Below are positions 35,532 to 61,740 of a stretch of 64,000 nucleotides of DNA, piece by piece; the stretch's first letter is position 1, and every line of letters begins with the position of its first letter. This stretch comes from Candidatus Daviesbacteria bacterium GW2011_GWA1_41_61 (GTDB lineage Bacteria > Patescibacteriota > Microgenomatia > Daviesbacterales > UBA10151). Location: assembly GCA_000997385.1 (NCBI GenBank), contig LCBT01000003.1:192892-256891 (forward strand), read 5' to 3'. Position numbers and translations under genes: made by a program. Under the pieces are notes generated by a model, which saw only the letters and a program-made list of their open reading frames with translations, did no database searches and was not told where the DNA came from.

Positions 35532-37364
35532 TTAGGCCCCTCCAAATATTTTTGCTGATACTTCACTGGATAATGGGTCATTATAAACTCTTTGAGGCAA
35601 ATCCCAGTAGTTTTCTGTCCCATAGGCTCGGGAGGCGGCACGGAATGAGTAATACAATTCTCCTGTCCTATTATATCTAAAGGCTTTTTTGTCCTTGCCT
35701 TCCAATTGACTGTTTACATACTCAAAAGCCTTTCTAATACCTCTTCCATCATCTGTTTGATAATTCCATAAGTCTACACCGTGCTTTTTAGCAATAGCAG
35801 CCATTTCACTCAAAGCAAAAAGATTAAATACCTGATAATCTAGGGACATATCTCCCCGTTTGGTTTCCTCAGTCATTTCTCCATCCGGCATTATTTGTGT
35901 TTTCATTCTTTCTTTTGTTGATTGAATGGCTTCTTTGACAACCTCTTCCCTTCCTAAAAAGTCGGCAACATACGCAACCTGAGCATCATAAAAAGTTCCG
36001 TGATTATTTAGCATCGCTCTCTCTCCTCCTCGTTCCTTTTCATTTCCAGCGTCCTTTTTCCCAATACCTTTTTCACTTGTTAGCAACCAATTCAAGTATT
36101 GGTCAAACCACTTTCTAACTCCATCAAGAGTTTCTTCATCAATCAAACCAGCATCTCTTAAGTTACTAATACCTTCAACGACCTGCATTAATCCCGCACC
36201 ATCAATAATTCCATAAAAATTACCGCTTTCCTCACCTTGTTTTATTTGAGCATATTCTAAGGAAGGGGTCATCCGTGTTTCATCGTTTACAAACCAGGTT
36301 CTTATCGCAGATACAGCATAATTTCCAAATCTTTCTTTTTGCGTGCCGTCCTCAGTGGCGTTTGCCGCTAAGGAACAAATATAAATTGCGTTTTTAATTG
36401 TTTGGAGCTTTTTAGGGTCTTGATAACTTTCTACCTCGGGATTGATAACTGTGTCCACCTGCTTTGGTTTACCGCTTTCATCTAAGTGCCAATATGGAGA
36501 TAGTGATACAAAGTCCCTTTTGTCTCCTGATGGAGAATTGTTTTTATCTGTAATTAAAGGTATTGGGGTAAGAATTATTTTCTCAGCAATTTTTAACACT
36601 TCGTTTCCGTTTTCTTGCTTTTCTATTTCTGTAGTCTGCACATCAATCATTGCCCCCTTTGCTATTTCAAAAAAATTAGTGTCTATACTCCTACCACTAT
36701 CAATATATTCTTTTACCGTTGGCCTTAATTTTTCACCTAAGGTTTTCCTTTGTTTAACCGACCTTTCATCAGCCTTTTTGGCGGCAGGAGCTATACTTCC
36801 TATTGGTTCAACATCTGGTGCGTAGATACCTTGAATAGCGTATGCGATACCCTCGTCCAATAAGGTTGAGGCTCTTCCTTGTTCATTAGGAAAGCCAGTA
36901 ACAGCCTCAAAATCGGACGAAAACTTAGAACCTGGCCTACTGTCTAATAATCCGTGGACGCCTTCGTGTAATGCTGTTGAGGCGGTAAGGGCAATTGCTA
37001 ACCCACCGACTACCTTATCTTTGTCCTCCTCTTTTACATCTTTGAGTAAAGGTTCAATAAATCCTCTTGTTTCAGAAATAGCCTGTTCTCTGCCTGGTAG
37101 CTGAAGTTCAATAACTGTTCCTTTTATTGTTCCTTCGCCAATTTTCCCGTCAACCAGCTGAACACTAAGGTCTTGATGATGGCATCCGCCATATTCACCT
37201 AGAAACTTGTGAGCCTGACTTAGAGCTATATCCACATTATCTGCTTTTAGTCTTTCAGATAATGCGAACTGTTGAGACGCATCTTTGTTTTGTCTGGCAT
37301 CATCTACCCTCATATTAAACCTCATTTCTTGCTTTGGAGCTGTTTCCGCACCTTCGCCATCCAT
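35532..37364 (-). CDS. Two-domain protein: N-terminal HExxH metallopeptidase-like region fused to a C-terminal alginate-lyase/heparinase-type (alpha/alpha toroid) polysaccharide-lyase-like domain
   Basis: TASTALHEGVHGLLD (HExxH) at ~aa 120. C-terminal half has RAMLNNHGTFYDAQVAYVADFLG resembling the NNH(S)YW motif of PL5 alginate lyases. No N-terminal signal peptide detected. Confidence 0.55.
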   Translation of the reverse strand: MDGEGAETAPKQEMRFNMRVDDARQNKDASQQFALSERLKADNVDIALSQAHKFLGEYGGCHHQDLSVQLVDGKIGEGTIKGTVIELQLPGREQAISETRGFIEPLLKDVKEEDKDKVVGGLAIALTASTALHEGVHGLLDSRPGSKFSSDFEAVTGFPNEQGRASTLLDEGIAYAIQGIYAPDVEPIGSIAPAAKKADERSVKQRKTLGEKLRPTVKEYIDSGRSIDTNFFEIAKGAMIDVQTTEIEKQENGNEVLKIAEKIILTPIPLITDKNNSPSGDKRDFVSLSPYWHLDESGKPKQVDTVINPEVESYQDPKKLQTIKNAIYICSLAANATEDGTQKERFGNYAVSAIRTWFVNDETRMTPSLEYAQIKQGEESGNFYGIIDGAGLMQVVEGISNLRDAGLIDEETLDGVRKWFDQYLNWLLTSEKGIGKKDAGNEKERGGERAMLNNHGTFYDAQVAYVADFLGREEVVKEAIQSTKERMKTQIMPDGEMTEETKRGDMSLDYQVFNLFALSEMAAIAKKHGVDLWNYQTDDGRGIRKAFEYVNSQLEGKDKKAFRYNRTGELYYSFRAASRAYGTENYWDLPQRVYNDPLSSEVSAKIFGGA

Positions 37365-46954: not shown

Positions 46955-47495
46955 GTTGGGCAAAAACTAGTAGTCTTTTTAAAGCTGTGCCTAGGGGGGT
47001 GCAGGTTTGAAGGATTAGCTGATCACCTTGATCTTCTTTTAAATATTGAACTTCATCTGGCCAAACCTCTTTTTTATCCACCACCTGATATTTATACTCC
47101 CGGCCCTCTTTATAGAGAAAGATATTATCACCAAGTTGGAGTTCTCCCAGCCTTAAAAAGGCGGTGTTGTATCTGGTCATCCTCCAGGGGACATCAGAAG
47201 AGTGGGCAAACAAAAAGATAGTTCTTCCTTCTCCCGGTAAAGCACTCCCACGAGCTTGAGCTACTCCCTGCTCCAAGGCCTTTCGATAGACAGCTTGACT
47301 GAAAGGATCAACATCTAAAATTATTGGGGCTTGAGCATTGATTTTGGGGATGTTGATGTAAAAGGAATTACTTACAGCCAAACTAACTGCTGGTGAGGAA
47401 GAATGAGGCAGATAGAGCCTTAAAAAGGGATAATAAGTGAAACCTAGAAGCAGTAGTGACAAGATAATCAATAAATTTCCTAAATTTTTCCTCAT
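46947..47495 (-). CDS. Sortase-family transpeptidase
   Basis: N-terminal TM anchor. FAHS His and LILQTCTP (TLxTC catalytic Cys motif). Arg in ALKRLLVF. Confidence 0.75.
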   Translation of the reverse strand: MRKNLGNLLIILSLLLLGFTYYPFLRLYLPHSSSPAVSLAVSNSFYINIPKINAQAPIILDVDPFSQAVYRKALEQGVAQARGSALPGEGRTIFLFAHSSDVPWRMTRYNTAFLRLGELQLGDNIFLYKEGREYKYQVVDKKEVWPDEVQYLKEDQGDQLILQTCTPLGTALKRLLVFAQPT

Positions 47496-47543
47496 AGAAA
47501 TATTTTAATCATCAAAAATCCCCTATTAAGGGGGTTTTAGTTA

Positions 47544-48698: not shown

Positions 48699-48776
48699 TT
48701 CTTCTTTTACCTATATATTTTATGAAGCTCAGGTATTAAAAAGATTAAGGTAATGTAAGAAAAGTGTCACAATTGT

Positions 48777-51041: not shown

Positions 51042-51122
51042 TTTTTATTCCTTTCTGTTTTGATTTGGTTTCAGGGTGCCTTACTGAAGTGCAGGTAAGG
51101 CTACCCTTTATACCAAATTTAC

Positions 51123-52403
51123 TTAAGCAGAAAGATGCAGTCCTTCAAGGAGTTGGCTAAGTAAGTCCTCGAGTTCGTCAAGGTCAAAATCAAAGTCAAA
51201 ATCTACATCCTCGCCAAAGAGATTAACGTTAGCACTGTTGCTAGCTTCAACCTTAGTCTCGGCATCACCGGTACTGGTTTCAACATCACCATCGGTGTTA
51301 TCGTTGGCTTTGTTATCACCAGTAAAAGCGTCTGCCCAAACCTCATTTTCCACCTCACAACCTCTGTGGTCTCCATGTTGGTTCCCATCTAAGAACAAGT
51401 CATGGTTTTCAGGTTTGTTGTCCTTTCCGCAGTTGCTTTGAAAGACCTCTAATTCGTTTTCTAACTCAGCTTCAATCTCATTGTCAGAACCCGAACCGTT
51501 ACCAGAAATTTCAGCTTCTACGTCGAATAAACAACAATCCACATCAGCGGCGTTAAAGTTAACGGCGTTGTCAACTTCAACCCGGGTTTGGGCGTCGCCG
51601 GTGTCAATGGAAACATCACCATCGGTATTATCGTTGGCGTCATTGTTACCGGTGTTTGAATCTGCCCAGATACCGTTTTTGATATCTGCTTTATTTTCCT
51701 GAACCACCAAGACCGATCGGTCAAGATCAAGGTCAATAGTGTTATCGGAGTCTGAACCGTTTCCCGAGATCTCCAGATCTACCCCGTTTTCATCACCGTT
51801 GCCGCCGATATTGGCAATATTGGCGTTAGCGCGGTTTTGAACATCCACGGTGGTCGAAGCATCTCCAGTATCAATGGAAACATCACCATCGGTATTATCG
51901 TTGGCGTCATTGTTACCGGTGTTTGAATCTGCGCTAACCCAGTTTCTGATATCAGCGTTGTTTGATTGAAAAACTTTAGTTTCGTTTTCGGACTCAAGCT
52001 CCACATTGTTATCGGAGTCTGAACCGTTACCTGAGATCTCCACATTAGTGTCACCATTACAGGTTCCACAATTTTCCAAGTCAGCTACGTTTAAGTTAGC
52101 TTGATTTTGGACTTCTACTCTAGTGGTGGCATCTCCGGTATCTACTTGCACATCCCCGCCGGTGTTATCATTGGCATCGTTATTGCCGGTATCTGCACTT
52201 GCGTTAATTCGGTTAGTGATTTCAGCATTATTTTCCTGAACAACAGTTGTGTTGTTATTTGTAGTAACATCAACAGTACTATCAGAATCCGAGCCGTTAC
52301 CGGTAATCTCTAGGGTTGTAGTAGCCAAAGCTGGTGTGGCCAGAGCGTAAAGGAGAAGTGATGCGGTAGCAATCGCTGTAGCTATCTTTTGTCTTATCAT
52401 TTT
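51123..52403 (-). CDS. Secreted tandem-repeat protein (start MIRQK with a strong RBS), same GNGSDSDN/ADTGNN/TGDA repeat family, acidic C-terminus
   Basis: Signal peptide ATASLLLYALATPALA. Four or more repeats ISGNGSDSDNxVE...ADSNTGNNDANDNTDGDVSIDTGDA. Cys pairs. C-terminus DFDFDFDLDELEDLL without a TM. Confidence 0.65.
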   Translation of the reverse strand, partial: KMIRQKIATAIATASLLLYALATPALATTTLEITGNGSDSDSTVDVTTNNNTTVVQENNAEITNRINASADTGNNDANDNTGGDVQVDTGDATTRVEVQNQANLNVADLENCGTCNGDTNVEISGNGSDSDNNVELESENETKVFQSNNADIRNWVSADSNTGNNDANDNTDGDVSIDTGDASTTVDVQNRANANIANIGGNGDENGVDLEISGNGSDSDNTIDLDLDRSVLVVQENKADIKNGIWADSNTGNNDANDNTDGDVSIDTGDAQTRVEVDNAVNFNAADVDCCLFDVEAEISGNGSGSDNEIEAELENELEVFQSNCGKDNKPENHDLFLDGNQHGDHRGCEVENEVWADAFTGDNKANDNTDGDVETSTGDAETKVEASNSANVNLFGEDVDFDFDFDLDELEDLLSQLLEGLHLSA

Positions 52404-52692
52404 CTCACCCCCTTTCTTTCCTGAAAAAATCCGCTTATGGCGGAGCACTTCATTGACCATATCTTAAAAATTTCCTTTTAAAAAAGAATTAAGATCTGGT
52501 AAGAGTTTAGTAATAAGGTAACCTATAGAGGCTAATGGAAAGTTTAACTGTTTAAAGGAATAGACTAAGAACTAAGGAATAATAAGTAATATTATGGGGA
52601 ATGTGGTTTACGTTATAGCAAAACAATGAGGCCTATATATGTAACGCTTGATTTAATAGTTGTTTGGATTAGCGGTGGGGATTTAGACTCTA

Positions 52693-53289
52693 TCAGAACT
52701 GAAGATCAAAAGTTGTTTTTTCTCCGTTGATCTCCCCCACTTGGACCTGAAAATTTTTTTGCCCCTCATTTACCGGAAAACCAAGTCTGGTATATTTAGT
52801 AGAGATAGGCTGAGCTTCTACCGGATCGTTATGAATATCCGGGGCCAGCCACTCCTGTCCCCCATTGGCTGAGATTCGCAGGAAATCCCGGGTGTTGACC
52901 TGAATTTTTTGTTGGCCTTCGTTTATCAACCTCAAGTTAAATATCAAAAAGATCCGTCCTGCTACAGCCGTGGCTTTCTGTCCTTTAACCACTATTTCCT
53001 TCCTCACTTCAGCTCCTTCAATATTATATTTTAGAGTTCCTACTTGTTTACCCTGGCTGTCATTTATCGGAAAGCTGAATTCTTTATTTAAAGATGTTTT
53101 GGCGGTTGGTTCAGCTATTTGCAGGGATTTATTAGGGATGGGAGCAGTTAAAGAAAAATTATCCTGAGAATTTTTTAATAGGCCGGGTCGAGTACCCAGA
53201 AAGATCAAACTTCCTGCTGCTAAAATGCCTAACCCGATAAAAAGGTATTTTTTAGATAACCTGATAGAGGGAATTCTAGCTGTTAACAT
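52693..53289 (-). CDS. Membrane-anchored hypothetical protein (DUF4352-like beta-sandwich)
   Basis: N-terminal TM helix, then a ~150-aa beta-rich domain. Confidence 0.5.
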   Translation of the reverse strand: MLTARIPSIRLSKKYLFIGLGILAAGSLIFLGTRPGLLKNSQDNFSLTAPIPNKSLQIAEPTAKTSLNKEFSFPINDSQGKQVGTLKYNIEGAEVRKEIVVKGQKATAVAGRIFLIFNLRLINEGQQKIQVNTRDFLRISANGGQEWLAPDIHNDPVEAQPISTKYTRLGFPVNEGQKNFQVQVGEINGEKTTFDLQF

Positions 53290-53707
53290 TTAATTTAATT
53301 TTTACCTCCTGCTCACGGTTATTTTTAATAATTTCTACCTCTACTTTTTGTTGACCGCGGGAGCCAACCAGTTTATTTAAAACATCACCATTAGTTTTGG
53401 TTTGGACAAAAGAGGTAGTATTCATCCCCAAAGCTTTAATTTTTTCTTTATACCAATCAGTAATAACTTGGGGATCATCAAAGCTTATAAAAGCTTGTTG
53501 GTTTTGGTCATTAATAATATTTCGGGAATTAGGATACTTCAGACCAGAGATATTACTATCTGAACCCCCTTGATTGTTAGGAGTAACTGTCGGTGAGACA
53601 GGGCTTGGGCTAAGTTCTTTTCTGAAACCGGCAGTTTGGTTTAAATAGGCTGCGGAGATCACGATCAAGGTAAATAAAATTAAGACAATTAAGATTTGCG
53701 GGCTCAT
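53276..53707 (-). CDS. Membrane-anchored hypothetical protein (143 aa)
   Basis: N-terminal TM helix. Overlaps the downstream ORF by 14 nt. Confidence 0.45.
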   Translation of the reverse strand: MSPQILIVLILFTLIVISAAYLNQTAGFRKELSPSPVSPTVTPNNQGGSDSNISGLKYPNSRNIINDQNQQAFISFDDPQVITDWYKEKIKALGMNTTSFVQTKTNGDVLNKLVGSRGQQKVEVEIIKNNREQEVKIKLNVNS

Positions 53708-53781: not shown

Positions 53782-55083
53782 CTAACTGCAGCTTTGAGTC
53801 GGGTTGTATTTAGAGCCGTAAGTACCTACAGAGTTGCCGCCATCATTTGTAGACATATTATTATCACAAACTTTACCCTGAGGTGTTCTTTGGAATTTTA
53901 TACCCCCTGATTTATTATTCTTGATAATATTTTGGTAAATATTATTGTTAATACCTTGAGTCTCTTTATCTCCACCTAGTCTAATTCCTGCGCCGCTATT
54001 TCCGTAAATTTCATTATTTTTAAAAGTATTTCCCTCTCCCCGGGAATCCATCCCCCCGGAATTACTGTCTTTTTGACCGGTACACTTATTGTTCTCCATC
54101 ATGTTTGCTGAGGCAGCTTCTTTAATGTCAACACACTCATTTCCTTGAGTGTCAATAGTATTGTCATGGATAAAGTTGCCGTTTGATTGATCCGGATCAG
54201 AAGTAGGGTTTTTTCCGTCACCCAGCTGTTCCGGAGCAGTGCCAATATAGATCCCTTCCCCATTTTTACCACCGCCATTGAATTTAAAATCATAAACTCC
54301 ACAATTTGTGATAGTATTGCCGGCAATTTCATTATTTTGAGCAAAATATCTTAGTCTGATACACTCTCCCCCAGCATTTTTAAGAGTCATTCCCAAAACC
54401 TTCAGCCCTGTAACTCCGGATTTAGTTTCTTTGCCTTGTACATAAAGTAACTTGTCACGGTATCCGGAAGATGAAGATGAGGATCCAAAAAGACCATCAA
54501 TAGTAAAACCCCTAAGTGTTATAGAATCATGGTTTATTTCAAAAATCCGGCCTTTCCCCCCGCCTTTGATAACTGCTTCTTTAGGCCCGGAAATAATAAT
54601 TGGTTTATCAGAAGTTCCATTTCTTTTGGTGATTATATCCTGAGAATATGTCCCCGGGGCTAGGGCAATTGTCTCTCCTCCCTGGGCTAAGTCGACTGCC
54701 TTCTGAATTGTCTTAAAGGGTTTATCTGCGGATAGTCCATTATTTTCATCGCTTCCGGAAGGATTAATATAATAACTTTTTAAAGCGGTTGGTGCAGAAA
54801 CGGGCTGAGCAGCCGCTGAAAGCGTTGTGGTGGGTGTTGCTTGGACTATATTACTGCTGTTGATAATGACTGTGCTGGCGTTTACCACAACGGTCCCGGT
54901 AGTGGTAATATTTTGAGTAGCAGCCTCTTGGGCATCAGCTCCAGTTCTAAAGATAATTTGCTGTAGTAAGAGAGTAGAGATTACAGTAGATATTAGTATA
55001 AGACTATACTTAGCAGAACTAGCTGAAATCTTTTTAAGTCTACCAAGGAAAAAATATTTCATCCGGTGGGCAAGTTTTAACAT
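53782..55083 (-). CDS. Secreted right-handed parallel beta-helix (pectate-lyase-fold) protein
   Basis: N-terminal anchor or signal. SYYINPSGSDENNGLSADKPFKTIQKAVDLAQGGETIALAPGTY is the typical beta-helix enzyme N-cap. Many N/G-rich turns follow. Confidence 0.65.
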   Translation of the reverse strand: MLKLAHRMKYFFLGRLKKISASSAKYSLILISTVISTLLLQQIIFRTGADAQEAATQNITTTGTVVVNASTVIINSSNIVQATPTTTLSAAAQPVSAPTALKSYYINPSGSDENNGLSADKPFKTIQKAVDLAQGGETIALAPGTYSQDIITKRNGTSDKPIIISGPKEAVIKGGGKGRIFEINHDSITLRGFTIDGLFGSSSSSSGYRDKLLYVQGKETKSGVTGLKVLGMTLKNAGGECIRLRYFAQNNEIAGNTITNCGVYDFKFNGGGKNGEGIYIGTAPEQLGDGKNPTSDPDQSNGNFIHDNTIDTQGNECVDIKEAASANMMENNKCTGQKDSNSGGMDSRGEGNTFKNNEIYGNSGAGIRLGGDKETQGINNNIYQNIIKNNKSGGIKFQRTPQGKVCDNNMSTNDGGNSVGTYGSKYNPTQSCS

Positions 55084-55178
55084 TGGTTAGTGGAATTTGA
55101 CGCTTAATTTAATAAGCGGCTGAGATTGTAAGTTCAATTTAATAATTTGTCAAGTTTTTTGTAAGGACAAGATAGGGG

Positions 55179-58130
55179 TTAGTTGGGGTGGATGTCTTTA
55201 CCGTTTTGGGCAATAGTATTGGGACCTAAGTAGTTAATATTACCAGCTGAAGTTTTGGAATAGATTCCATAGGTGCTATTGTTGATAATTTGATTCATGG
55301 TAAATCTATTTTCTGAAGCGTTCTCTACCAAATATAGACCTATTTGGTTGTTGGTAATTAAATTACCGGTGACAAGATTTTCTTTAGTTTTGATATAGAC
55401 AGCTTGGTGATTGTTGCTAATTTTATTATTTAAAACAGTATTGTTATTAGAACCATCATAAATGTAAAAGCCATATTGTTTATTGTCTTCAATCTGATTC
55501 CCCTCAAATAAATTATCCATTGATGCCTTATTTATCCTAACCCCTCTTTGGTTTTTAGAAATAGTGTTGTTGCGGATAGTGTTATTGCTGGATTGATAGA
55601 CAACTATACCGTCAAGATTTCCACTAACGGTATTGTTTTCCACTAAATTATTATTAGAATTTTCATGAAGCATGATTCCATGGAGTTTATTATTATAGGA
55701 GAGGTTATTTCTAATGATGTTATTAAAACATCTTTTGGAAAAAATTAACCCATGGTTTCCGTTGTTATAAAATTTATTATTCTCCACGATAAAGTTATTG
55801 GAGTCATCGTGAGGGTCTAAACCATATTGAATGTTATCGAAAAATTCATTCCCCCTCCAAAGCATCGAAGTGGTTCCAAAAGTATAAGCTCCGAAATAAT
55901 TGTGGTGAAATTTACTGCTTAAAACTTCACCGGAGAGTAAATGTGTCCCCAATTTACCGTTACTCATCCGCCAGGCAACACCATAAACAGAGTCTTCAGT
56001 CGGTGCCGTTCTCCTATAGCCCAGATAAGCCAATTCCGAATCATAGATATCCATCCGGGAAAAATCCTTAACCAGGATATAGCTTCTGCCGTTTTTATAA
56101 TCCTTATCGAAATCATTATTATCCTCATCCCATGAGGTAATTTTGACACCCTTAATTAAAACCAGACCGTTATTAGATTTTAAATTTACAAAACCATTCT
56201 TATTACTGGCCAGTTTAAGCCAAGTCACTTCATCTTTATTTAAAGTTAACATTACTCCGTTTCTAACCCACAGGTTAGACCGCAAGATCCAATTTTGGGG
56301 GGATGTTTCTTCTAACTTTGTTTTTCCTACACTGGATTGGATATTCTTTAAAGTGACTTGTTTTCCTCTCCCCTGGACGATGATGGTGTTAGATGGTTGA
56401 TCAAAACTTATTTGCAAAATATCGGGGTTCTTTTTGGTATAGGAATAATTTGGCTGGAAATCAATAGAAAAATTCGACCTGGGGATATTTAAAATATAAC
56501 CGGGACTGATCTGATTCCAATTAGGCAAAATATTAATATTAGCCTTAAGAAGACTATCTGCGGTAATTCCATTAGCTTTGGCTATACGGGCCAAGGAATC
56601 CCCGGGCTTAACCGCATACCGGGTTACCAGCATCCGGTTAATGTTATCTAAAGATGAAGCTCCCGCTACCAATAATGTTTCATCAGTCTCAATATTAGTC
56701 AGGGTTACTAAGTTATTTGGTTGATTTGGTTGGATTGAAGATAAGACAGGTTGAAACTGTTGCCGGTACCAAAAAATTCCCCAAGCTAGGACTGCAAAAA
56801 CTAAAACAGTTGCTCCCCAGGCGGGAATTTTAGTTAAAAATTTAAATTGAGGAAGCCGGGAAGTATCCCATCTGGTTATCCAGCCCTGGGTATTTAAAGT
56901 AAACAGGGCATAAATTTTCATCCCGGCTGAGACAAAGCTAAGGAGAATGAAAGCAGGCAAGACAGTAATATCCTGAGGCCTTCTTTTAAGATGAGGATAT
57001 AATTTAATAGTTCTGCTTATAAACCACCAGACAAAAATAGCCAGTGCTAATGTCCAATGCTGTAGGGTTAAAGCAATCATAAAAAAGAGTGGGCTAAGCA
57101 GTATAGTAAATCCTTGAATAACCTTATCAACTTGAAAATAAGCCAAAGAGGGGTGGTGAAAAACCCAGCCATGATAGATTGCCCGAAGGTCTGCTCTTAA
57201 GGCATTCCTGGTCCAGCGGAGCCGTTGTTTTAAATAAGATTTTAAATCTTCAACACCCGGGGTAAAGACATGGGAAGTCATCTGATAGGCAACTTTCCAT
57301 CCAGAGGCCAGTACTAAATAAGTAAGTCTTTTATCATCTCCGCTGACTACTTTTTGCCCCCAAAAAGTTTCATTTACCAAATCTGGGATCATTGGAGTTA
57401 TCACATCCTTCCTATAAAAGGCAGTTCTCCCGGATAAACAGATTAGTGCATCACCGGCTGCTCCCAAAAATGGGAACTCATCAAAATAGCGGAGATCAAG
57501 TTGAATATCAAAGATTTTTTGGGCCAGTGTTTTAGGCTGCAAGACATTTTGTCTGGTAGCAACCCCGGCAATTTGGGGATTCTCAAAGGGAATCAAGCCA
57601 TTTTTTAAAGTATCCTCCGACCAGATAGTATCACTATCAACTAAAGCTACTACCTCTCCTATGGATGCTTTTATTCCATCAGCTAAGGCTTCCCTTTTCC
57701 CATATTTTTGAGTGATAATTAATCTAGCTTTGGAAAAAACTTTTTGAAAATCCTCAAAGATTTTAAGACATTTTATATCTGTATAATCAATAACTGCAAT
57801 AATTTCTTGGGGAGAATTTTTAGCCCAGGAAACTAGGGCATCAATAAAAACTTTGGGATTTTCATTATAGACCGGAGTAATTACAGAGACTGACGTTTTA
57901 AAATAACCTTTTTTAGGGTGATAAAATTGGGCCACTGTTTTTTTAAACAGCCATGTTCCCCATCTCCAAAGACCAATAATTCCCAGGGGTAAATAAAAAG
58001 TAACCCACTGCCAATAAGTGGTAAATACCCTGGTCAAAGATTCCGCTATCGGGCTGACAACTGGACTTATTGAGGGCAGTTCAAAGACAAATTTAATGTT
58101 GGATGGATCGGTCGGCCAGATAACGTCCAT
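55179..58130 (-). CDS. Fusion protein: processive family-2 glycosyltransferase (polysaccharide synthase, multi-TM) + LysM + C-terminal parallel beta-helix with AlgG/AlgE-type YG-x-DPHD motif (C5-epimerase/lyase-like)
   Basis: GT2: ISVITPVYNE, ALVDSDTIW (DxD), LKQRLRWTRN (QxxRW), 6-8 TM helices. LysM: YAVKPGDSLARIAKANGITADSLLKANINILP. Beta-helix: NIQYGLDPHDDSNN, then ~12 PbH1 repeats (NNxISNN...). Confidence 0.8.
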   Translation of the reverse strand: MDVIWPTDPSNIKFVFELPSISPVVSPIAESLTRVFTTYWQWVTFYLPLGIIGLWRWGTWLFKKTVAQFYHPKKGYFKTSVSVITPVYNENPKVFIDALVSWAKNSPQEIIAVIDYTDIKCLKIFEDFQKVFSKARLIITQKYGKREALADGIKASIGEVVALVDSDTIWSEDTLKNGLIPFENPQIAGVATRQNVLQPKTLAQKIFDIQLDLRYFDEFPFLGAAGDALICLSGRTAFYRKDVITPMIPDLVNETFWGQKVVSGDDKRLTYLVLASGWKVAYQMTSHVFTPGVEDLKSYLKQRLRWTRNALRADLRAIYHGWVFHHPSLAYFQVDKVIQGFTILLSPLFFMIALTLQHWTLALAIFVWWFISRTIKLYPHLKRRPQDITVLPAFILLSFVSAGMKIYALFTLNTQGWITRWDTSRLPQFKFLTKIPAWGATVLVFAVLAWGIFWYRQQFQPVLSSIQPNQPNNLVTLTNIETDETLLVAGASSLDNINRMLVTRYAVKPGDSLARIAKANGITADSLLKANINILPNWNQISPGYILNIPRSNFSIDFQPNYSYTKKNPDILQISFDQPSNTIIVQGRGKQVTLKNIQSSVGKTKLEETSPQNWILRSNLWVRNGVMLTLNKDEVTWLKLASNKNGFVNLKSNNGLVLIKGVKITSWDEDNNDFDKDYKNGRSYILVKDFSRMDIYDSELAYLGYRRTAPTEDSVYGVAWRMSNGKLGTHLLSGEVLSSKFHHNYFGAYTFGTTSMLWRGNEFFDNIQYGLDPHDDSNNFIVENNKFYNNGNHGLIFSKRCFNNIIRNNLSYNNKLHGIMLHENSNNNLVENNTVSGNLDGIVVYQSSNNTIRNNTISKNQRGVRINKASMDNLFEGNQIEDNKQYGFYIYDGSNNNTVLNNKISNNHQAVYIKTKENLVTGNLITNNQIGLYLVENASENRFTMNQIINNSTYGIYSKTSAGNINYLGPNTIAQNGKDIHPN

Positions 58131-59061
58131 AGGTTTTATCCCTTTTTGGCTGTGGCGTGTTTTTTTGTTTCTCCGGGTGTTTTTGGGCTATCTGTTCATT
58201 AACTTTAATGGTTTGCTTTAGCAAATCAGCTGAGAGACCGTTGTCTTCAACCCAACTTAAAAATGCCCGGGTATCTTTGGGAAGACAATTACCGCTAAAA
58301 GGGCCTTGGTCTTTTAATCCATAAAATGGGTTCCAATTTCCTTCCGCACTTTCTGCTACCAGGGGAAAGATTAGCTCTGGATCTAACCCGGCGTTTTGAG
58401 TAATCTGTCTCATTTCATTAAAGAAAGTAATTTTGACAGCATTAAAAAGGTTGTGGATATATTTTTGAATTTCTGCTTCTTGAAGTGAAACTCTATACTT
58501 GGGGCAATCAAAATCCTCGTAAATCTCCTCCAGTAAATTACCCGATCTGTGGTCATATTCTCCGATCACGATTACCCAAGATTTGAGGAAATCTTCATCA
58601 GCAAATCTCTCCCGTAGGTATTCTGGGTTCATACAGATTCCAAAATTTTTCCCCACACTTTTACCGGAGTATTTTTCGATAAGTTTAACAACCAGATTTT
58701 CAGTGGTTCCGGGTAAAACTGTGCTTTTGACTACCACCAAGTGGTATTTATTTAAAGCATATAACCTTTTGCCTAAATATTTAGAGGCTTCCTCCATCAT
58801 GTTTAAGTTAATCCGTTCATTTTCAGTGGGGGTGGGGACAGATAAAAAGGAGACATCGAAATCAAAAGTACCGTTTTTGAGCTCATCAGGGTGGTAAGCT
58901 TTAAAACCCTCCTCTCTTAATTTTTGGACCTTCAAGGGATTAATATCTAAAAAAGTCACGTTAAACCCTAAAGAAGAAAAACCTTTGCCGGTGGCTTGCC
59001 CCACAAATCCAGAACCAATGATGCAAATTTTTGGTTTTAATTTCTTCACCATTCTGTTCAT
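58093..59061 (-). CDS. Nucleotide-sugar 6-dehydrogenase (UDP-glucose/GDP-mannose dehydrogenase family), apparently lacking the C-terminal nucleotide-sugar-binding domain
   Basis: ICIIGSGFVGQATG Rossmann motif. NPEYLRE. Catalytic Cys in SGNCLPKD. Ends after the central domain (322 aa). 3' end overlaps the GT2 fusion gene by 38 nt. Confidence 0.75.
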   Translation of the reverse strand: MNRMVKKLKPKICIIGSGFVGQATGKGFSSLGFNVTFLDINPLKVQKLREEGFKAYHPDELKNGTFDFDVSFLSVPTPTENERINLNMMEEASKYLGKRLYALNKYHLVVVKSTVLPGTTENLVVKLIEKYSGKSVGKNFGICMNPEYLRERFADEDFLKSWVIVIGEYDHRSGNLLEEIYEDFDCPKYRVSLQEAEIQKYIHNLFNAVKITFFNEMRQITQNAGLDPELIFPLVAESAEGNWNPFYGLKDQGPFSGNCLPKDTRAFLSWVEDNGLSADLLKQTIKVNEQIAQKHPEKQKNTPQPKRDKTYGRYLADRSIQH

Positions 59062-59190
59062 AGAAGTTTCTTAAGTCTTGCTCTCCTTAAGAAGCAATTT
59101 GGACTTTTATTGAAACTGTGAGCATCTTAATTTACCAGGGTAAGAAGTAAAATTATTCACGGTAATAGCTTTGTAAGAGTTTAATCTCCG

Positions 59191-60510
59191 CTATTTCTTA
59201 ATGATCGTAGTTAGACGAATTTGATAATCGCCATCTTCTAATAGATATGTAAGAAAGGTTTGCTGGGTAGTTTGATTATTTACTACGCTGGGGTACATGG
59301 CATTATCAGCTATTTTATTTTGAAAGATCTTCTCATTTAAGCGGTTTAATACCCTGATCAAAATTTGACCCTCAGAGGGATTTTCATTGGGAAAATCAGC
59401 CCTTTTGTTGCTTTCCATCCAAGTGATATAAACATTGTCTGACAAGTCACTCCCTACACTGGGAAAGAATTGATATGAACCAGAAGGAGAAACGAGCTTT
59501 GGCTTAGACCATTTATCCCCTTGGGAAAGGGAAATAAAAATTTGGCTTTTTCCTTTGTCTTGGTCAGGTGAACGCCAGACAGCAATGATCTGATTTTGAT
59601 TGGTAACTGCTGCACTGACATGCCGGGAGTCAAAGTTATTTTGGGAAATGTTCTCCCATTGACTCCACTTTATTCCGTCATCAGAAAAGGAATGCCAAAT
59701 TTGCTGATAAGGCTGATTAAAAGCAGAGTACATGAAAACATGCAGCCTTCCCTTATGATCTTCCAGGATGGTAGGCCGCGATTGTGAGTCATTGGAAGAT
59801 GGCTGGATGTTGATCCATTTTGACCAAGTATTACCCCCATCTTCTGAGCTGGAGAGTTTAATTTGCTGATTTTGATGTTCCATATCTTTTCCTTCCCAAA
59901 CAACATATATCTTGCCGTTTTTAGTGACTGCTATATCCGGATGTTCCTGCCATAAAGACTGATCTTTGAATCCTTCGACATAAGAAATATTAATTGCTTT
60001 ACTCCAAATTTGGCCACCATTTTGGGAACGGCTGTATTTAATTTGCCGGTCCCCTTCCCTTTCTTTGGAGTCAGCCCCATACCAGACAAGGTGAATATTA
60101 TTATCCGTATCAACAACTAAAGAAGGAACCCGTTGATTAGTCTTATTAGTTATTGATGAAATTGGTTGATCAGTATGAGTAACCTGCCATGTTCCAGTCC
60201 TTTCTTTGATCACCTTTGCCACATAGACCTGATAAATTTGATTAAACTTTTTCCGGTATCCGATATACAGATTTCCTTGTAAATCTTGAGCCATCTTTTT
60301 TTGTCCGCTATAGCCTAAAGCCCTTTCATCTTCAGTAGTATCTATGACGATAGTGGAAGAAACAACTACAGGTGGGTGCAACTTTTTTTCTTTTTGTCCC
60401 GCCGGCCATCCTTCATATAGAAAATAACTACTTATTATTAAGGCCAGCACAATTAATCCGTATTTGAATTTTGATGATTTCCATAAATTACTTAGGACGG
60501 GTGGAACCAT
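59191..60510 (-). CDS. Membrane-anchored BNR/Asp-box repeat (sialidase-like beta-propeller) protein
   Basis: Four S-x-D-x-G-x-T-W Asp-boxes (SRSQNGGQIWS, SSSEDGGNTWS, SFSDDGIKWS, SLSQGDKWS). N-terminal TM helix. Confidence 0.7.
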   Translation of the reverse strand: MVPPVLSNLWKSSKFKYGLIVLALIISSYFLYEGWPAGQKEKKLHPPVVVSSTIVIDTTEDERALGYSGQKKMAQDLQGNLYIGYRKKFNQIYQVYVAKVIKERTGTWQVTHTDQPISSITNKTNQRVPSLVVDTDNNIHLVWYGADSKEREGDRQIKYSRSQNGGQIWSKAINISYVEGFKDQSLWQEHPDIAVTKNGKIYVVWEGKDMEHQNQQIKLSSSEDGGNTWSKWINIQPSSNDSQSRPTILEDHKGRLHVFMYSAFNQPYQQIWHSFSDDGIKWSQWENISQNNFDSRHVSAAVTNQNQIIAVWRSPDQDKGKSQIFISLSQGDKWSKPKLVSPSGSYQFFPSVGSDLSDNVYITWMESNKRADFPNENPSEGQILIRVLNRLNEKIFQNKIADNAMYPSVVNNQTTQQTFLTYLLEDGDYQIRLTTIIKK

Positions 60511-61068: not shown

Positions 61069-61740
61069 ATGCTGTCAGATAACTCTTTAAAAAAATTGGA
61101 GACTTTCTTCAGTAGTTACAAACCGTTGCGTTTTAAAAGAAGGGAAATTGTTTTATATGCTGATGAACAAGTAACTAATATTTTCTATATCCGTAGCGGT
61201 TACGTCCGGGTTTACCGCATCTCTGAATTAGGTGAGGAGTTAACAATTACTATTTTAAAACCTTTAGACCTCTTCCCTATCTCTTGGGGGATAGACCATA
61301 CCCCTAACCCCTATTATTTGGAAGCAATTACTTCTTTAGAGGTTTACCGGGTATCTCAGGCACAATTTTTAAGATATATCAGGTCACAACCGGATACTTT
61401 TTATGAGTTGGCTAGTAAAATGTTGGCCAGGTTTGACAGGTTGTTAACCAGGATGGAGTATTTAGTTACCGGTAGAGCTTACACTAAAGTTGCTTCAATA
61501 ATTCTAGTTTGCGCTGCCAGCTTTGGGCAAAAACAAGGGGCCAATGTTGTTCTTAGTATCCCTTTAACACACCGCGATATTGCAGCTTTAGTAGGCATTA
61601 CCCGGGAGACAACCTGTTTGGAGATGAAAAAATTAGAGAAAAAGGGATTAATCAGTCACTTGGGAAGGCAGTTAATTGTTAAGGATCTTAAAAAATTAGA
61701 AGAGGAATCAGCCTTTTTAGGTGAGGGAACAGCCTTTTAA
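61069..61740 (+). CDS. Crp/Fnr-family transcriptional regulator
   Basis: cNMP-binding beta-roll (RREIVLYADEQVTNIFYIRSGYVRVY) and C-terminal HTH LTHRDIAALVGITRETTCLEMKKLEKKGLI. Confidence 0.8.
   Translation: MLSDNSLKKLETFFSSYKPLRFKRREIVLYADEQVTNIFYIRSGYVRVYRISELGEELTITILKPLDLFPISWGIDHTPNPYYLEAITSLEVYRVSQAQFLRYIRSQPDTFYELASKMLARFDRLLTRMEYLVTGRAYTKVASIILVCAASFGQKQGANVVLSIPLTHRDIAALVGITRETTCLEMKKLEKKGLISHLGRQLIVKDLKKLEEESAFLGEGTAF

What the first reader, a model, noticed from the sequence alone, without database searches (positions are those of the whole stretch)
53782..60510. Compact alginate-like (polyuronate) exopolysaccharide locus in a reduced genome
Four consecutive minus-strand genes: (1) a nucleotide-sugar 6-dehydrogenase (AlgD/Ugd family), which makes the uronic-acid sugar nucleotide; (2) a processive GT2 polysaccharide synthase fused to LysM and a beta-helix carrying the AlgG/AlgE YG-x-DPHD motif; (3) a second secreted beta-helix protein; (4) a BNR/Asp-box beta-propeller. 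Together with the alginate-lyase-like fusion protein at 35.5-37.4 kb and the polysaccharide deacetylase at the window end, this resembles a minimal synthesis, epimerisation or trimming, and modification pathway for an acidic exopolysaccharide. Canonical systems spread these functions over about 12 proteins (Alg8/44/K/E/G/X/L/I/J/F/A/D). No Alg44 (PilZ), AlgK or AlgE porin homolog is visible. That would fit a single-membrane cell, but it could equally mean the pathway is incomplete or lies elsewhere in the genome. Such a system in a Patescibacteria-like genome would be, to my knowledge, undescribed. Order and overlap of genes were seen in sequence. The pathway interpretation is inference.
Basis: partly seen in the sequence, partly recalled or inferred. 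Interest (0 to 1): 0.8.

Follow-up and report, generated by a model that had tools for sequence, protein, structure and literature searches.

The report
Compact alginate-like polysaccharide synthesis locus
Four neighbouring genes in this small-genome bacterium very likely make, modify and trim an alginate-like acidic sugar polymer using one fused membrane enzyme instead of the roughly twelve proteins Pseudomonas needs, and the same module recurs in hundreds of uncultivated bacteria without having been described.

Summary
Four co-directional minus-strand genes lie at 53782-60510:
- a beta-propeller
- a 322-aa sugar-nucleotide 6-dehydrogenase
- a 983-aa fusion of a membrane GT2 synthase, LysM and an AlgG-like beta-helix
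- a secreted beta-helix

The grouping is not chance. The fusion occurs in at least 308 species-level genomes of Patescibacteria and Chloroflexota. The short dehydrogenase sits beside it in 44 of 47 well-flanked loci. At least one of three lyase-like genes lies within 3 kb in 37 of 47.

- The synthase is closest to hyaluronan synthase and NodC. Alg8 is a weaker homologue.
- The dehydrogenase always lacks the C-terminal domain. Its size and motifs match the short GDP-mannose dehydrogenases proven in brown algae.
- The second beta-helix resembles PL31 alginate lyase.
- The propeller folds like uronate lyases.
- The deacetylase is not part of the module.

In relatives, the adjacent PL7 gene strongly resembles a polyguluronate lyase, which points to an epimerised mannuronan.

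Best reading: GDP-mannuronate is polymerised and exported by a single polypeptide, whose tethered outer domain epimerises the chain. Substrate and product are inferred, not shown. I rate it a new variant of a known kind.

The parts
59191..60510 (-). Membrane-anchored beta-propeller (439 aa), a candidate uronate-directed lyase or hydrolase. First gene of the group.
   Evidence: Pfam BNR_2 4e-09 and BNR_4 5e-06. N-terminal hydrophobic anchor at residues 19-37. Only 240 homologues were found; those that carry a source name are from Patescibacteria or Chloroflexota. AF2 model has pLDDT 89. The best Foldseek E-values are to PL42 Rha-GlcA lyase 7esk (TMq 0.61) and PL25/PL24 ulvan lyases (about 0.5-0.56); GH145 proteins have the highest TM-scores (0.64-0.66); sialidases follow. 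It lies next to the synthase in 14 of 47 well-flanked loci.
58093..59061 (-). Short two-domain sugar-nucleotide 6-dehydrogenase (322 aa), probably a GDP-mannose 6-dehydrogenase. Catalytic Cys259 is at 58287..58285.
   Evidence: PF03721 + PF00984 are present and PF03720 is absent. TIGR03026 matches model positions 2-305 of 413. Solved structures: AlgD 1mfz 1.7e-44, Pyrobaculum UGDH 3vtf 5.4e-44. It is 34% identical to P. aeruginosa AlgD, with a 19-residue deletion in the Rossmann domain. Motifs are GSGFVG at 16-21, SGNCLPKD with Cys259, and Pro at Cys-5. More than 120 short homologues were found. It is adjacent to the synthase in 44 of 47 loci.
56751..58130 (-). Synthase half of the 983-aa fusion (residues 1-460). 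It holds the N-terminal TM helix, the cytoplasmic GT2 catalytic domain, the interface helices and the membrane channel helices.
   Evidence: PF13641 2.8e-25. NodC TIGR04242 1e-29. Solved hyaluronan synthases score 2.6e-14 by sequence and 1e-22 by profile. Foldseek TM-score normalised to the target: CvHAS 0.63, BcsA 0.34. Alg8 BLASTP gives 4e-11 with 25% identity over 301 aa. Nearly invariant motifs are DSD 165-167, GDDKRLT 264-270, QRLRW 302-306 and GWITRW 416-421.
56478..56624 (-). LysM domain (residues 503-551) of the fusion. Presumed peptidoglycan tether outside the membrane.
   Evidence: PF01476 7.5e-08. The profile matches solved LysM proteins. The AF2 model shows a compact domain between two low-confidence linkers. 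PBP1a and MurT/GatD genes in the window show that peptidoglycan is made.
55179..56414 (-). AlgG-like right-handed beta-helix (residues 573-983) of the fusion, a candidate polymer-level uronate C5-epimerase. The YGLDPHD motif is at 55826..55806.
   Evidence: NCBIfam AlgG NF038177 1.3e-38. Solved AlgG 4ozz scores 4e-32 by sequence and 6e-47 by profile. Foldseek TM-score normalised to AlgG is 0.69. It is 28% identical to P. aeruginosa AlgG over 310 aa. DPHD is at 772 and NNLSY at 808, against DPHD 324 and NNRSY 361 in AlgG. D772, H774, D775, K799 and R800 are invariant in 25 sequences.
53782..55083 (-). Membrane-anchored or secreted beta-helix protein (433 aa), a candidate PL31-like alginate lyase.
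   Evidence: PF13229 1e-08, Pel9A-like 2.4e-06, DUF1565 7.5e-06. N-terminal anchor at residues 27-45. A profile of 20 orthologues matches the solved alginate lyase 6kfn at 1.6e-08 over about 220 residues, and chondroitinase B weakly. It lies next to the synthase in 17 of 47 loci. A promoter-like site matching 11 of 12 positions sits at 55153..55125 just upstream.
35532..37364 (-). Unlinked alginate-lyase-family protein (610 aa) with an unknown N-terminal domain. It may handle uronate oligomers. It is not part of the conserved module.
   Evidence: PF05426 4.5e-62 at residues 276-556. Solved relatives are 3nfv 1.2e-32 and 8bdq-type 'alginate lyase family protein' 3e-27. No signal peptide or TM segment was found. 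A relative lies within 10 kb of the synthase in only 1 of 82 loci.

Best explanation
The locus is a self-contained, synthase-dependent pathway for a secreted polyuronate, most probably mannuronan that is partly epimerised to an alginate-like polymer. It is built for a cell with a single membrane.

Proposed steps:
1. The cytoplasmic short dehydrogenase oxidises GDP-mannose to GDP-mannuronate.
2. The N-terminal half of the 983-aa protein is a hyaluronan-synthase/Alg8-type GT2 with its own membrane channel. It polymerises the sugar and pushes the chain through the membrane.
3. After the last TM helix the same polypeptide continues outside the cell. A LysM domain docks it on peptidoglycan. An AlgG-like beta-helix with the DPHD and NN.SY motifs abstracts the C5 proton of residues in the emerging chain and converts some mannuronate to guluronate.
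4. The flanking membrane-anchored beta-helix (PL31-like) and beta-propeller (folded like PL24/25/42/GH145) cut, release or recycle the polymer. In relatives a PL7 polyguluronate-lyase-like gene takes a comparable position beside the synthase, sometimes together with the propeller or the beta-helix.

Shown here: gene order, domain identities, conserved catalytic motifs, and conserved linkage across hundreds of genomes.

Inferred: the nucleotide sugar, the polymer, the outside location of the C-terminal half, epimerase rather than lyase chemistry, and the roles of the two flanking genes.
For: Linkage:
- The fusion was found in 308 species-level loci.
- The short dehydrogenase lies within 3 kb in 44 of 47 well-flanked loci, with a median gap of 26 bp.
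- At least one of the three lyase-like genes is present in 37 of 47.

Epimerase domain:
- E 4e-32 by sequence and 6e-47 by profile to solved AlgG, with Foldseek TM-score 0.69.
- DPHD and NN.SY are conserved at AlgG spacing, and a basic residue is conserved at the AlgG Arg345 position.

Synthase:
- Foldseek TM-score to CvHAS is 0.63, and the alignment covers the membrane helices.
- The DSD, GDDKRLT, QRLRW and WxTRW motifs are nearly invariant.
- It is a clear homologue of the GDP-mannuronate-using Alg8, at E 4e-11 pairwise and 60 bits by profile.

Dehydrogenase:
- The catalytic Cys, Lys and Asn are kept.
- The short form is a large clade, about 100 of the 150 best 50%-identity cluster representatives, and it forms one split in a neighbour-joining tree.
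- Its length (322 aa), GxGxVG motif, Cys position (259), Pro at Cys-5 and Rossmann-domain deletion match what PMC4782291 reports for the enzymatically characterised Saccharina GDP-mannose dehydrogenases. Those are 320 and 315 aa, with the active-site motif at 259-267 and 256-264, Val17 and Pro257, and an 'incomplete Rossmann fold'.
- PMC11468063 reports that the best prokaryotic match of brown-algal GMD (40% identity) is a Woesebacteria protein. Woesebacteria carry this locus (L019).

Product:
- The PL7 neighbour in relatives scores 6.6e-60 to the polyguluronate lyase 1uai.
- The 433-aa beta-helix profile hits the alginate lyase 6kfn at 1.6e-08.
- The propeller's best-scoring fold matches (lowest E-value, highest TM-score) are enzymes that act at uronic acids.
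- A PF05426 lyase is also present in the window.

Topology:
- The loop at 372-387 is rich in Lys and Arg.
- The WxTRW loop, cytosolic in hyaluronan synthases, precedes a single last TM helix at about 427-458. This puts LysM and the beta-helix outside.
Against: - There is no biochemical evidence of any kind.
- The GT2 domain scores higher to UDP-sugar enzymes (CvHAS 83 bits, NodC 103 bits) than to Alg8 (60 bits).
- The short dehydrogenase clade is as far from AlgD as from the archaeal UDP-glucose dehydrogenase 3vtf, with mean distances of 0.727 and 0.730. GDP-mannose specificity therefore rests on the published brown-algal link. I could not align a brown-algal sequence myself.
- The missing C-terminal domain normally binds the nucleotide, and how the short form binds substrate is unknown.
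- No GDP-mannose pathway gene (ManB, ManC) was found among the annotated ORFs of the 64 kb window.
- The window's own locus has no PL7 gene, so the polyguluronate-lyase argument comes from relatives.
- PL7-, PF05426- and PL31-type folds, and the propeller fold, also include enzymes for glucuronate-containing polymers (own knowledge of the CAZy families).
- Epimerases and lyases of this fold share their first chemical step and cannot be told apart by sequence.
Confidence: 0.6

Rival explanations
1. The polymer is glucuronate-based. The dehydrogenase makes UDP-glucuronate, as HasB and Cps3D do. The hyaluronan-synthase-like GT2 then makes either a glucuronan or a GlcA-containing heteropolymer of hyaluronan or cellubiuronic type. 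The tethered beta-helix converts GlcA to iduronate or cleaves the chain.
For: - The GT2 domain's best characterised relatives are hyaluronan synthases and NodC.
- The best dehydrogenase models in NCBIfam are UDP-glucose dehydrogenases, AglM 3e-45 and TuaD 3e-34.
- The archaeal UGDH 3vtf ties with AlgD.
- The propeller's best-scoring fold matches act at glucuronate: PL42, PL25 and GH145.
- The window lyase matches the 8bdq-type family. From memory, that family was founded on a glucuronan lyase.
- LysM binds GlcNAc-containing glycans.
Against: - The short dehydrogenase shares length, motifs and the Rossmann deletion with proven brown-algal GDP-mannose dehydrogenases (PMC4782291, PMC11468063).
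- The beta-helix is 28-30% identical to mannuronan epimerases over about 300 residues, with both AlgG motifs. To my knowledge, no glucuronate epimerase of this fold is known.
- The PL7 neighbour matches a polyguluronate lyase at 7e-60.
- The 433-aa beta-helix matches a PL31 alginate lyase.
- LysM is equally explained as a peptidoglycan anchor.
Confidence: 0.22
2. The C-terminal AlgG-like domain is not an epimerase. It is a lyase, or a chain-length or release factor, that cuts the nascent polyuronate. The product would then be an unepimerised homopolymer such as mannuronan.
For: - Epimerases and lyases of this fold begin with the same C5 proton abstraction.
- From memory, bifunctional AlgE7 exists.
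- The conserved residues (D772, H774, D775, K799, R800) fit either outcome.
- A synthase with no partner proteins needs some way to release its chain.
Against: - The closest relatives by a wide margin are the dedicated epimerases AlgG. The profile gives 6e-47 to AlgG, 2e-12 to the AlgE4 epimerase and only 0.04 to the beta-helix alginate lyase BcAlyPL6.
- The loci already carry one to two separate lyase-like genes.
- A polyguluronate-lyase-like PL7 next to the synthase in relatives makes sense only if guluronate is produced.
Confidence: 0.2
3. The GT2 is a chitin or chito-oligosaccharide synthase of NodC type. LysM binds its own GlcNAc product, and the dehydrogenase and beta-helix serve another purpose.
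For: NodC is the best NCBIfam model, at 1e-29. LysM domains bind chitin and peptidoglycan (one search lists chitin-elicitor-binding LysM proteins among weak matches).
Against: - The NodC score of 103 bits is far below the model's cut-off of 550.
- Eukaryotic chitin synthase structures match less well than hyaluronan synthase.
- This reading does not explain the near-obligate linkage to a 6-dehydrogenase, an AlgG-like domain and uronate-lyase-like genes.
Confidence: 0.05
4. The pathway is defective or incomplete. The dehydrogenase is a truncated remnant, and no uronic-acid sugar nucleotide is made from this locus.
For: The PF03720 domain is missing. The ORF end overlaps the synthase start. No GDP-mannose genes were found among the annotated ORFs of the window.
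Against: - The short form is the rule, not an accident. In all 72 loci with the gene, the ORF ends at most about 50 residues after the central domain.
- More than 120 clusters share 54-83% identity with it.
- About 100 of the 150 best representatives are short.
- Catalytic motifs are conserved.
- Brown-algal enzymes of the same size are active (PMC4782291).
Confidence: 0.04

Closest known systems
Pseudomonas / Azotobacter alginate system (AlgD, Alg8, Alg44, AlgK, AlgE, AlgG, AlgX, AlgL, AlgI/J/F, AlgA)
   Same: - A 6-dehydrogenase homologous to AlgD (34% identity).
- A processive GT2 homologous to Alg8 (25% identity over 301 aa).
- An AlgG-type beta-helix with DPHD and NN.SY (28% identity).
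- Lyase genes associated with the synthesis genes.
   Different: - Three to four genes instead of twelve.
- The epimerase is fused to the synthase through a LysM domain.
- There is no PilZ/Alg44 co-polymerase, no AlgK/AlgE outer-membrane export, no AlgX/I/J/F acetylation and no AlgA in the locus.
- The dehydrogenase lacks the C-terminal domain.
- The GT2 is nearer to hyaluronan synthase than to Alg8.
- The lyases are PL31-like, propeller-type or PL7 rather than a periplasmic PL5 AlgL.
Class I hyaluronan synthase operons (hasA-hasB) and the pneumococcal type 3 capsule pair (cps3D-cps3S)
   Same: - A single membrane GT2 both polymerises and exports an acidic polymer across one membrane.
- It is paired with an adjacent sugar-nucleotide 6-dehydrogenase (operon make-up is from my own knowledge).
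- The GT2 here is the closest solved-structure relative of CvHAS and XlHAS1, including the GDD and QxxRW motifs and a WxTR-type loop.
   Different: - Those synthases end in the cytoplasm and carry no extracellular catalytic domain.
- Their dehydrogenases are full-length UDP-glucose enzymes.
- They have no polymer-level epimerase and no associated lyases.
Brown-algal alginate pathway, and the actinobacterial genes proposed as its source
   Same: - A short GDP-mannose dehydrogenase of about 315-320 aa without the C-terminal domain, with the same motif positions (PMC4782291).
- The best prokaryotic relative of the algal enzyme is a Woesebacteria protein (PMC11468063).
- Epimerases of the AlgG/DPHD type.
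- Skermania piniformis carries short dehydrogenase, GT2 and beta-helix as three adjacent genes.
   Different: - In brown algae the mannuronan synthase is unidentified and is reported not to resemble Alg8 (PMC11468063).
- The Skermania GT2 is a different subfamily, with SED and QRRRW motifs, and is not matched by the profile of the fusion.
- The Skermania beta-helix has DPHS and is a separate protein.
- Neither system has the LysM fusion.

Membership tests
Pseudomonas-type alginate biosynthesis operon | AlgD-type three-domain GDP-mannose 6-dehydrogenase | tested here: not met
   It is homologous (34% identity, E 6e-54), but the C-terminal domain PF03720 is absent. The protein belongs to a separate short clade.
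Pseudomonas-type alginate biosynthesis operon | Alg8 mannuronan synthase orthologue | tested here: inconclusive
   It is a clear homologue of P. aeruginosa Alg8 taken from L083 (BLASTP 4e-11; profile 60 bits, E 1e-15). It scores higher to hyaluronan synthase (83 bits). No phylogeny was made.
Pseudomonas-type alginate biosynthesis operon | Alg44 (PilZ, c-di-GMP receptor), AlgK/AlgE export and AlgX/I/J/F acetylation components | tested here: not met
   No such Pfam domains occur in the four genes or in the other annotated ORFs of the window. None is listed among the called neighbours in L001-L004.
Pseudomonas-type alginate biosynthesis operon | AlgG-type C5-epimerase with DPHD and NNRSY motifs in a right-handed beta-helix | tested here: met
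   It is present as the C-terminal domain of the synthase. Solved AlgG scores 4e-32, with TM-score 0.69. DPHD 772 and NNLSY 808 correspond to AlgG 324 and 361. The motifs are conserved in 25 homologues. Activity was not tested.
Class I hyaluronan synthase / NodC / chitin synthase clade of GT2 | GT-A domain with DxD, G(D/E)D(R/K)xLT, Q(R/Q)xRW and a WGTR-type loop, joined to its own membrane channel | tested here: met
   The motifs are DSD 165-167, GDDKRLT 264-270, QRLRW 302-306 and GWITRW 416-421, all nearly invariant. The AF2 model aligns with CvHAS over about 480 columns at TM-score 0.63.
Class I hyaluronan synthase / NodC / chitin synthase clade of GT2 | Use of UDP-GlcNAc (with or without UDP-GlcA) as donor | not testable with these tools
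   I did not attempt a donor-specificity reading from sequence, because I know of no residues that would decide it. Alg8, which uses GDP-mannuronate, is a homologue.
Brown-alga-type short GDP-mannose 6-dehydrogenase | About 315-320 aa with no C-terminal domain; GxGxVG; active-site Cys near 259-262 in G.xCLPKD; Pro five residues before the Cys; shortened Rossmann domain | tested here: met
   The window protein is 322 aa with GSGFVG at 16-21, Cys259, Pro254 and a 19-residue deletion relative to AlgD. The published values are in PMC4782291. In the short clade, Val at the fourth motif position occurs in 58 of 87 and Pro at Cys-5 in 71 of 101.
Brown-alga-type short GDP-mannose 6-dehydrogenase | Groups with the characterised algal enzymes in a phylogeny, and is specific for GDP-mannose | not tested
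   No algal sequence could be retrieved with the tools. The only link is the statement in PMC11468063 of 40% identity to a Woesebacteria protein.
PL31 alginate lyase (for the 433-aa beta-helix) | Sequence relationship to the solved PL31 enzyme over the catalytic beta-helix | tested here: inconclusive
   The profile of 20 orthologues matches 6kfn at 1.6e-08 over profile positions 102-340. Catalytic residues were not compared, and the PL31 assignment of 6kfn is from memory.
PL24 / PL25 / PL42 / GH145 beta-propeller enzymes (for the 439-aa propeller) | Shared propeller fold and catalytic His/Arg/Tyr set at the uronate site | tested here: inconclusive
   The fold match has TMq 0.56-0.66 and E about 1e-12. 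Sialidases score nearly as well. Active-site residues were not compared.

The most novel reading that the evidence does not exclude
Patescibacteria and some Chloroflexota make genuine alginate with a one-polypeptide synthase, exporter and epimerase, fed by a two-domain GDP-mannose dehydrogenase. That would be a third lineage of alginate producers besides Pseudomonas/Azotobacter and brown algae. This bacterial module, rather than an actinobacterial one, would be the nearest living relative of the gene set that brown algae acquired. If so, its GT2 type is a concrete lead for the still-unidentified algal mannuronan synthase. The short dehydrogenase would also show how this enzyme family can work without its nucleotide-binding domain, perhaps by docking on the synthase.
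Probability: 0.3. Interest if true: 0.85.

Novelty: new variant of a known kind. Interest (0 to 1): 0.72.

Why it matters
As far as I know, alginate synthesis is established only for Pseudomonas and Azotobacter, with a twelve-protein trans-envelope machine, and for brown algae, whose polymerase has never been identified.

A three- to four-gene version would give several things:
- It would be the simplest known route to an alginate-like polymer. The polymerase, the exporter and the epimerase are one protein.
- It would be an attractive target for heterologous production and for enzymology of synthase-epimerase coupling.
- It would assign a function to a gene pair that is conserved in hundreds of uncultivated, host-dependent small-genome bacteria. 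There, a surface gel could matter for attachment, biofilm life or protection.
- It bears directly on the origin of the brown-algal pathway. The published best bacterial match of the algal dehydrogenase belongs to the group that carries this locus.

Searches of the held open-access literature found no description of the fused gene or of the locus.

Tried and rejected
1. I tried to find a brown-algal GDP-mannose dehydrogenase sequence for a direct alignment.
   - The exhaustive representative search lists only unnamed metagenome proteins.
   - Two cluster look-ups returned no algal names.
   - The supplements of PMC11468063 and PMC4782291 hold no sequences.
   - The Ectocarpus enzyme paper (Tenhaken 2011) is not held.
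   - The link therefore rests on published descriptors.
2. I asked whether similarity to AlgD alone shows GDP-mannose specificity. It does not. AlgD and the archaeal UDP-glucose dehydrogenase 3vtf are equally distant from the short clade.
3. I looked for an Alg8 model in NCBIfam. None matched, even at E 10. I therefore fetched a real P. aeruginosa alg operon from metagenome contigs, using the AlgD segment printed.
4. I considered the CE4 deacetylase and the two small membrane proteins at 52693-53707 as pathway members. I rejected them, because relatives occur in only 1-2 of 82 loci.
5. I considered the truncated-pseudogene explanation for the dehydrogenase and rejected it.
6. A fold search of the synthase model against afdb50, to look for eukaryotic relatives, could not run because the library was unavailable.
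7. Tandem-repeat and promoter/terminator scans added little. There are no DNA tandem repeats in the neighbouring repeat-protein genes. Promoter-like and terminator-like sites were only about 1.3- and 1.6-fold above the shuffled mean.
8. Many MAGs carry titles such as 'uncultured Gammaproteobacteria' or 'Saccharibacteria'. These look like placeholders, so I did not use them as taxonomy.

Full report
**1. What is in the sequence**

Four ORFs lie head to tail on the minus strand:
- 60510..59191 (439 aa)
- 59061..58093 (322 aa)
- 58130..55179 (983 aa)
- 55083..53782 (433 aa)

Pfam and NCBIfam give the following:
- A BNR_2/BNR_4 propeller.
- A nucleotide-sugar dehydrogenase with the N-terminal and central domains only.
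- A protein with GT2 (PF13641, 2.8e-25), LysM (7.5e-08) and Beta_helix/NosD (4e-30), whose beta-helix matches the AlgG model at 1.3e-38.
- A second beta-helix (Beta_helix, Pel9A-like, DUF1565).

The propeller and the second beta-helix each have one N-terminal hydrophobic anchor. The dehydrogenase has none.

The rest of the window is ordinary chromosome: ATP synthase, BipA, PBP1a, PheRS, ThrRS, NrdR and MurT/GatD. The closest relatives of the locus proteins that carry a source name come from Daviesbacteria, Levybacteria, Roizmanbacteria and Amesbacteria at 50-58% identity. The 'Patescibacteria-like' description is therefore reasonable.

**2. The grouping is conserved**

A pattern scan of one genome per species found 308 loci that encode a full-length relative of the fusion. 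They come from Microgenomates, WWE3 and Parcubacteria lineages and also from Chloroflexota: Ardenticatenaceae, Caldilineaceae and a 2.9-Mb contig.

I called ORFs in the 78 fetched loci, plus four found by exact look-up, and searched them with the window proteins.
- Among 47 loci with at least 3 kb on both sides, the short dehydrogenase is within 3 kb in 44. The median gap is 26 bp, and it is on the same strand in 43.
- The 433-aa beta-helix is present in 17, the propeller in 14, and a PL7 lyase (PF08787) in 11.
- At least one of these three is present in 37.
- The deacetylase at the window end and the PF05426 lyase at 35.5 kb each recur in only 1 of 82 loci, so they are not part of the module.

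**3. The fusion protein: synthase half**

By sequence, the N-terminal half matches solved hyaluronan synthases best. It scores 2.6e-14 alone and 1e-22 with a 25-sequence profile. BcsA reaches only 4e-4, and eukaryotic chitin synthases do not appear. NodC is the best NCBIfam model, at 1e-29 and far below its cut-off.

An AlphaFold model (pLDDT 85) aligns with Chlorella-virus hyaluronan synthase. The TM-scores normalised to the target are 0.63 for CvHAS, 0.34 for BcsA and about 0.35 for Chs1.

No Alg8 structure or model was available. I therefore retrieved a P. aeruginosa alg operon from metagenome contigs, using the AlgD segment printed. Alg8 is a clear but weaker homologue. It shares 25% identity over 301 residues (E 4e-11), running from the DxD region through the GDD and RW motifs into the membrane helices. 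It scores 60 bits with the profile, against 83 bits for CvHAS.

**4. The fusion protein: epimerase half and topology**

The C-terminal half matches solved AlgG at 4e-32 by sequence and 6e-47 by profile, with TM-score 0.69. It is 28% identical to P. aeruginosa AlgG over 310 residues.

AlgG has DPHD at 324 and NNRSY at 361. The fusion has DPHD at 772 and NNLSY at 808. D772, H774, D775, K799 and R800 are invariant in 25 homologues. K799 aligns with the AlgG arginine 26 residues after the catalytic histidine. From memory of the AlgG structure paper, that arginine neutralises the carboxylate.

Topology is inferred. A Lys/Arg-rich loop (372-387) and the GWITRW loop (416-421) precede a single last helix (about 427-458). 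In hyaluronan synthases the WGTR-type loop is cytosolic. LysM and the beta-helix should therefore lie outside the membrane.

**5. The dehydrogenase**

It keeps the Rossmann motif (GSGFVG 16-21), the Lys/Asn pair and the catalytic cysteine (SGNCLPKD, Cys259). It ends about 60 residues after the cysteine.

This is not a truncation accident:
- In all 72 loci that have the gene, the ORF ends within about 50 residues of the central domain.
- More than 120 database clusters at 54-83% identity are 288-346 aa long and lack PF03720.
- In an exhaustive search, about 100 of the 150 best representatives are short.
- In a neighbour-joining tree, 89 of 93 short sequences fall on one side of a single split, together with only three longer ones.

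AlgD (1.7e-44) and the Pyrobaculum UDP-glucose dehydrogenase (5.4e-44) tie as best solved relatives. They are equally distant from the short clade. Similarity alone therefore does not settle the substrate.

The published literature does help:
- The enzymatically characterised GDP-mannose dehydrogenases of Saccharina are 320 and 315 aa. They have GxGxVG at 14-19 and 11-16 and the active-site motif at 259-267 and 256-264. Val17 and Pro257 differ from bacterial enzymes, and the Rossmann fold is 'incomplete' (PMC4782291).
- The window protein and its clade share each of these traits, including Pro five residues before the cysteine and a 19-residue Rossmann deletion relative to AlgD.
- PMC11468063 reports that the best prokaryotic match of brown-algal GMD (40% identity) is a Woesebacteria protein. 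Woesebacteria carry this locus (L019).
- From memory, Tenhaken et al. 2011 showed that the Ectocarpus enzyme lacks the C-terminal domain and uses only GDP-mannose. I could not read that paper.

**6. The accessory genes**

- A profile of 20 orthologues of the 433-aa beta-helix matches the solved alginate lyase 6kfn at 1.6e-08. It matches chondroitinase B weakly.
- The propeller family is small, with 240 homologues; those that carry a source name are from Patescibacteria or Chloroflexota. Its model (pLDDT 89) has its best E-values to the PL42 rhamnose-glucuronate lyase and the PL25 and PL24 ulvan lyases, and its highest TM-scores to GH145 proteins. Sialidases follow.
- The PL7 gene next to the synthase in many relatives matches the polyguluronate lyase 1uai at 6.6e-60 and AlgAT5 at 2.5e-57. 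A guluronate-specific lyase type beside a synthase-epimerase gene is the strongest indirect sign that the product contains guluronate. The window itself has no PL7 gene.
- The unlinked 610-aa protein at 35532-37364 has a strong alginate-lyase-family domain and no signal peptide.

**7. An unfused version in a cultured organism**

In Skermania piniformis, a short dehydrogenase (296 aa), a GT2 (427 aa) and a beta-helix protein (460 aa) are three adjacent genes downstream of a GH134 gene. Its beta-helix matches the fusion's AlgG-like domain at 9e-33 and carries YGLDPHS. Its GT2 has SED and QRRRW motifs and is not matched by the fusion profile, so it is a different GT2 subfamily.

This fits the published view that brown algae obtained GMD, a synthase and epimerases from an actinobacterium (PMC8307928). 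It also shows that the dehydrogenase-synthase-epimerase triad is older than the fusion.

**8. Interpretation**

The simplest account of all parts is a synthase-dependent pathway for a polyuronate in a single-membrane cell:
- a cytoplasmic short GDP-mannose dehydrogenase
- a hyaluronan-synthase/Alg8-type enzyme that polymerises and exports the chain
- a tethered outer AlgG-like domain that epimerises it
- membrane-anchored lyase-like enzymes that trim or recycle it

I put about 0.8 on 'polyuronate synthesis and modification'. I put about 0.6 on the full statement, including mannuronate and epimerisation.

The main rival is a glucuronate-based polymer. It is supported by the synthase's nearest relatives and by the glucuronate-directed relatives of the propeller. 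The dehydrogenase traits, the AlgG relationship and the polyguluronate-lyase neighbour argue against it.

Whether the beta-helix epimerises or cleaves cannot be decided from sequence.

**9. Novelty**

Individual pieces are annotated in databases only generically: 'right-handed parallel beta-helix repeat-containing protein', 'glycosyltransferase', and once 'hyaluronan synthase'. Full-text searches of the held open-access library found no description of the fused gene or of an alginate-type locus in these bacteria. The only link is the single BLAST remark on the dehydrogenase in PMC11468063.

All the chemistry has precedents, so this is a new variant of a known kind, not a new category. It is interesting for three reasons: its simplicity, its spread in uncultivated lineages, and its bearing on the origin of the brown-algal pathway and its missing synthase.

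Noticed in passing
window 46947-52460 (minus strand): Three paralogous, repeat-rich proteins with no Pfam match lie directly downstream of the locus: 47544-48698, 48777-51041 and 51123-52460. They match each other at 1e-14 to 1e-52. A weak sortase-like ORF follows at 46947-47495 (7.5e-10 to a sortase from L003). Sortase genes also sit near the synthase in 14 of 82 related loci. There are no DNA tandem repeats. This may be a cell-surface gene neighbourhood.
   Followed up: partly
window 35532-37364 (minus strand): The alginate-lyase-family protein has an N-terminal region of about 250 residues with no family match. That region contains an HEGVH (HExxH-like) motif. The protein has no signal peptide or TM segment, so it looks cytoplasmic.
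   Followed up: partly
window 58093-58130: The dehydrogenase stop and the annotated synthase start overlap by 38 nt. Homologues align only from about residue 20-45 of the synthase, so the true start may be further downstream.
   Followed up: no
window 55125-55153 (minus strand): A promoter-like site matching 11 of 12 positions (TTGACA, 17 nt, TACAAT) lies in the 95-nt gap before the 433-aa beta-helix gene. That gene may therefore have its own promoter. This is a consensus match only.
   Followed up: no
window 52693-53707 (minus strand): Two small proteins with N-terminal anchors (143 and 198 aa) follow the beta-helix gene and overlap each other by 14 nt. They have no family match, and relatives occur in only 1-2 of 82 related loci.
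   Followed up: partly
window 61069-61740 (plus strand): A Crp/FNR-type regulator (cNMP_binding + HTH_Crp_2) lies about 560 nt upstream of the propeller gene and is transcribed divergently. Whether it controls the locus is unknown.
   Followed up: no
L002 3511-6432 and 8001-10937: One 574-kb contig carries two paralogous synthase-epimerase fusions 1.5 kb apart. The first has no recorded LysM hit and follows an fn3 protein. The second has LysM and is flanked by the short dehydrogenase and a PL7 lyase. An fn3 gene directly upstream of the synthase recurs in 30 of 82 loci.
   Followed up: partly
L164 8942-13561 (Skermania piniformis): A GH134 gene lies about 420 bp upstream of the unfused triad of short dehydrogenase, GT2 and beta-helix. 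From memory, GH134 enzymes are beta-1,4-mannanases, which would be curious next to a presumed mannuronan pathway.
   Followed up: no
L046 and L080 (Chloroflexota); L029: These well-flanked loci encode the full-length fusion but have no short dehydrogenase within 10 kb. The Ardenticatenaceae MAG has a second copy with the dehydrogenase (L042). The dehydrogenase may therefore be shared between copies.
   Followed up: no
L005, L009-L011 and many others: Many MAG records that encode proteins 50-56% identical to named Microgenomates proteins are titled 'uncultured Gammaproteobacteria', 'Bdellovibrionales' or 'Saccharibacteria'. These titles look like placeholders and should not be read as taxonomy.
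   Followed up: no
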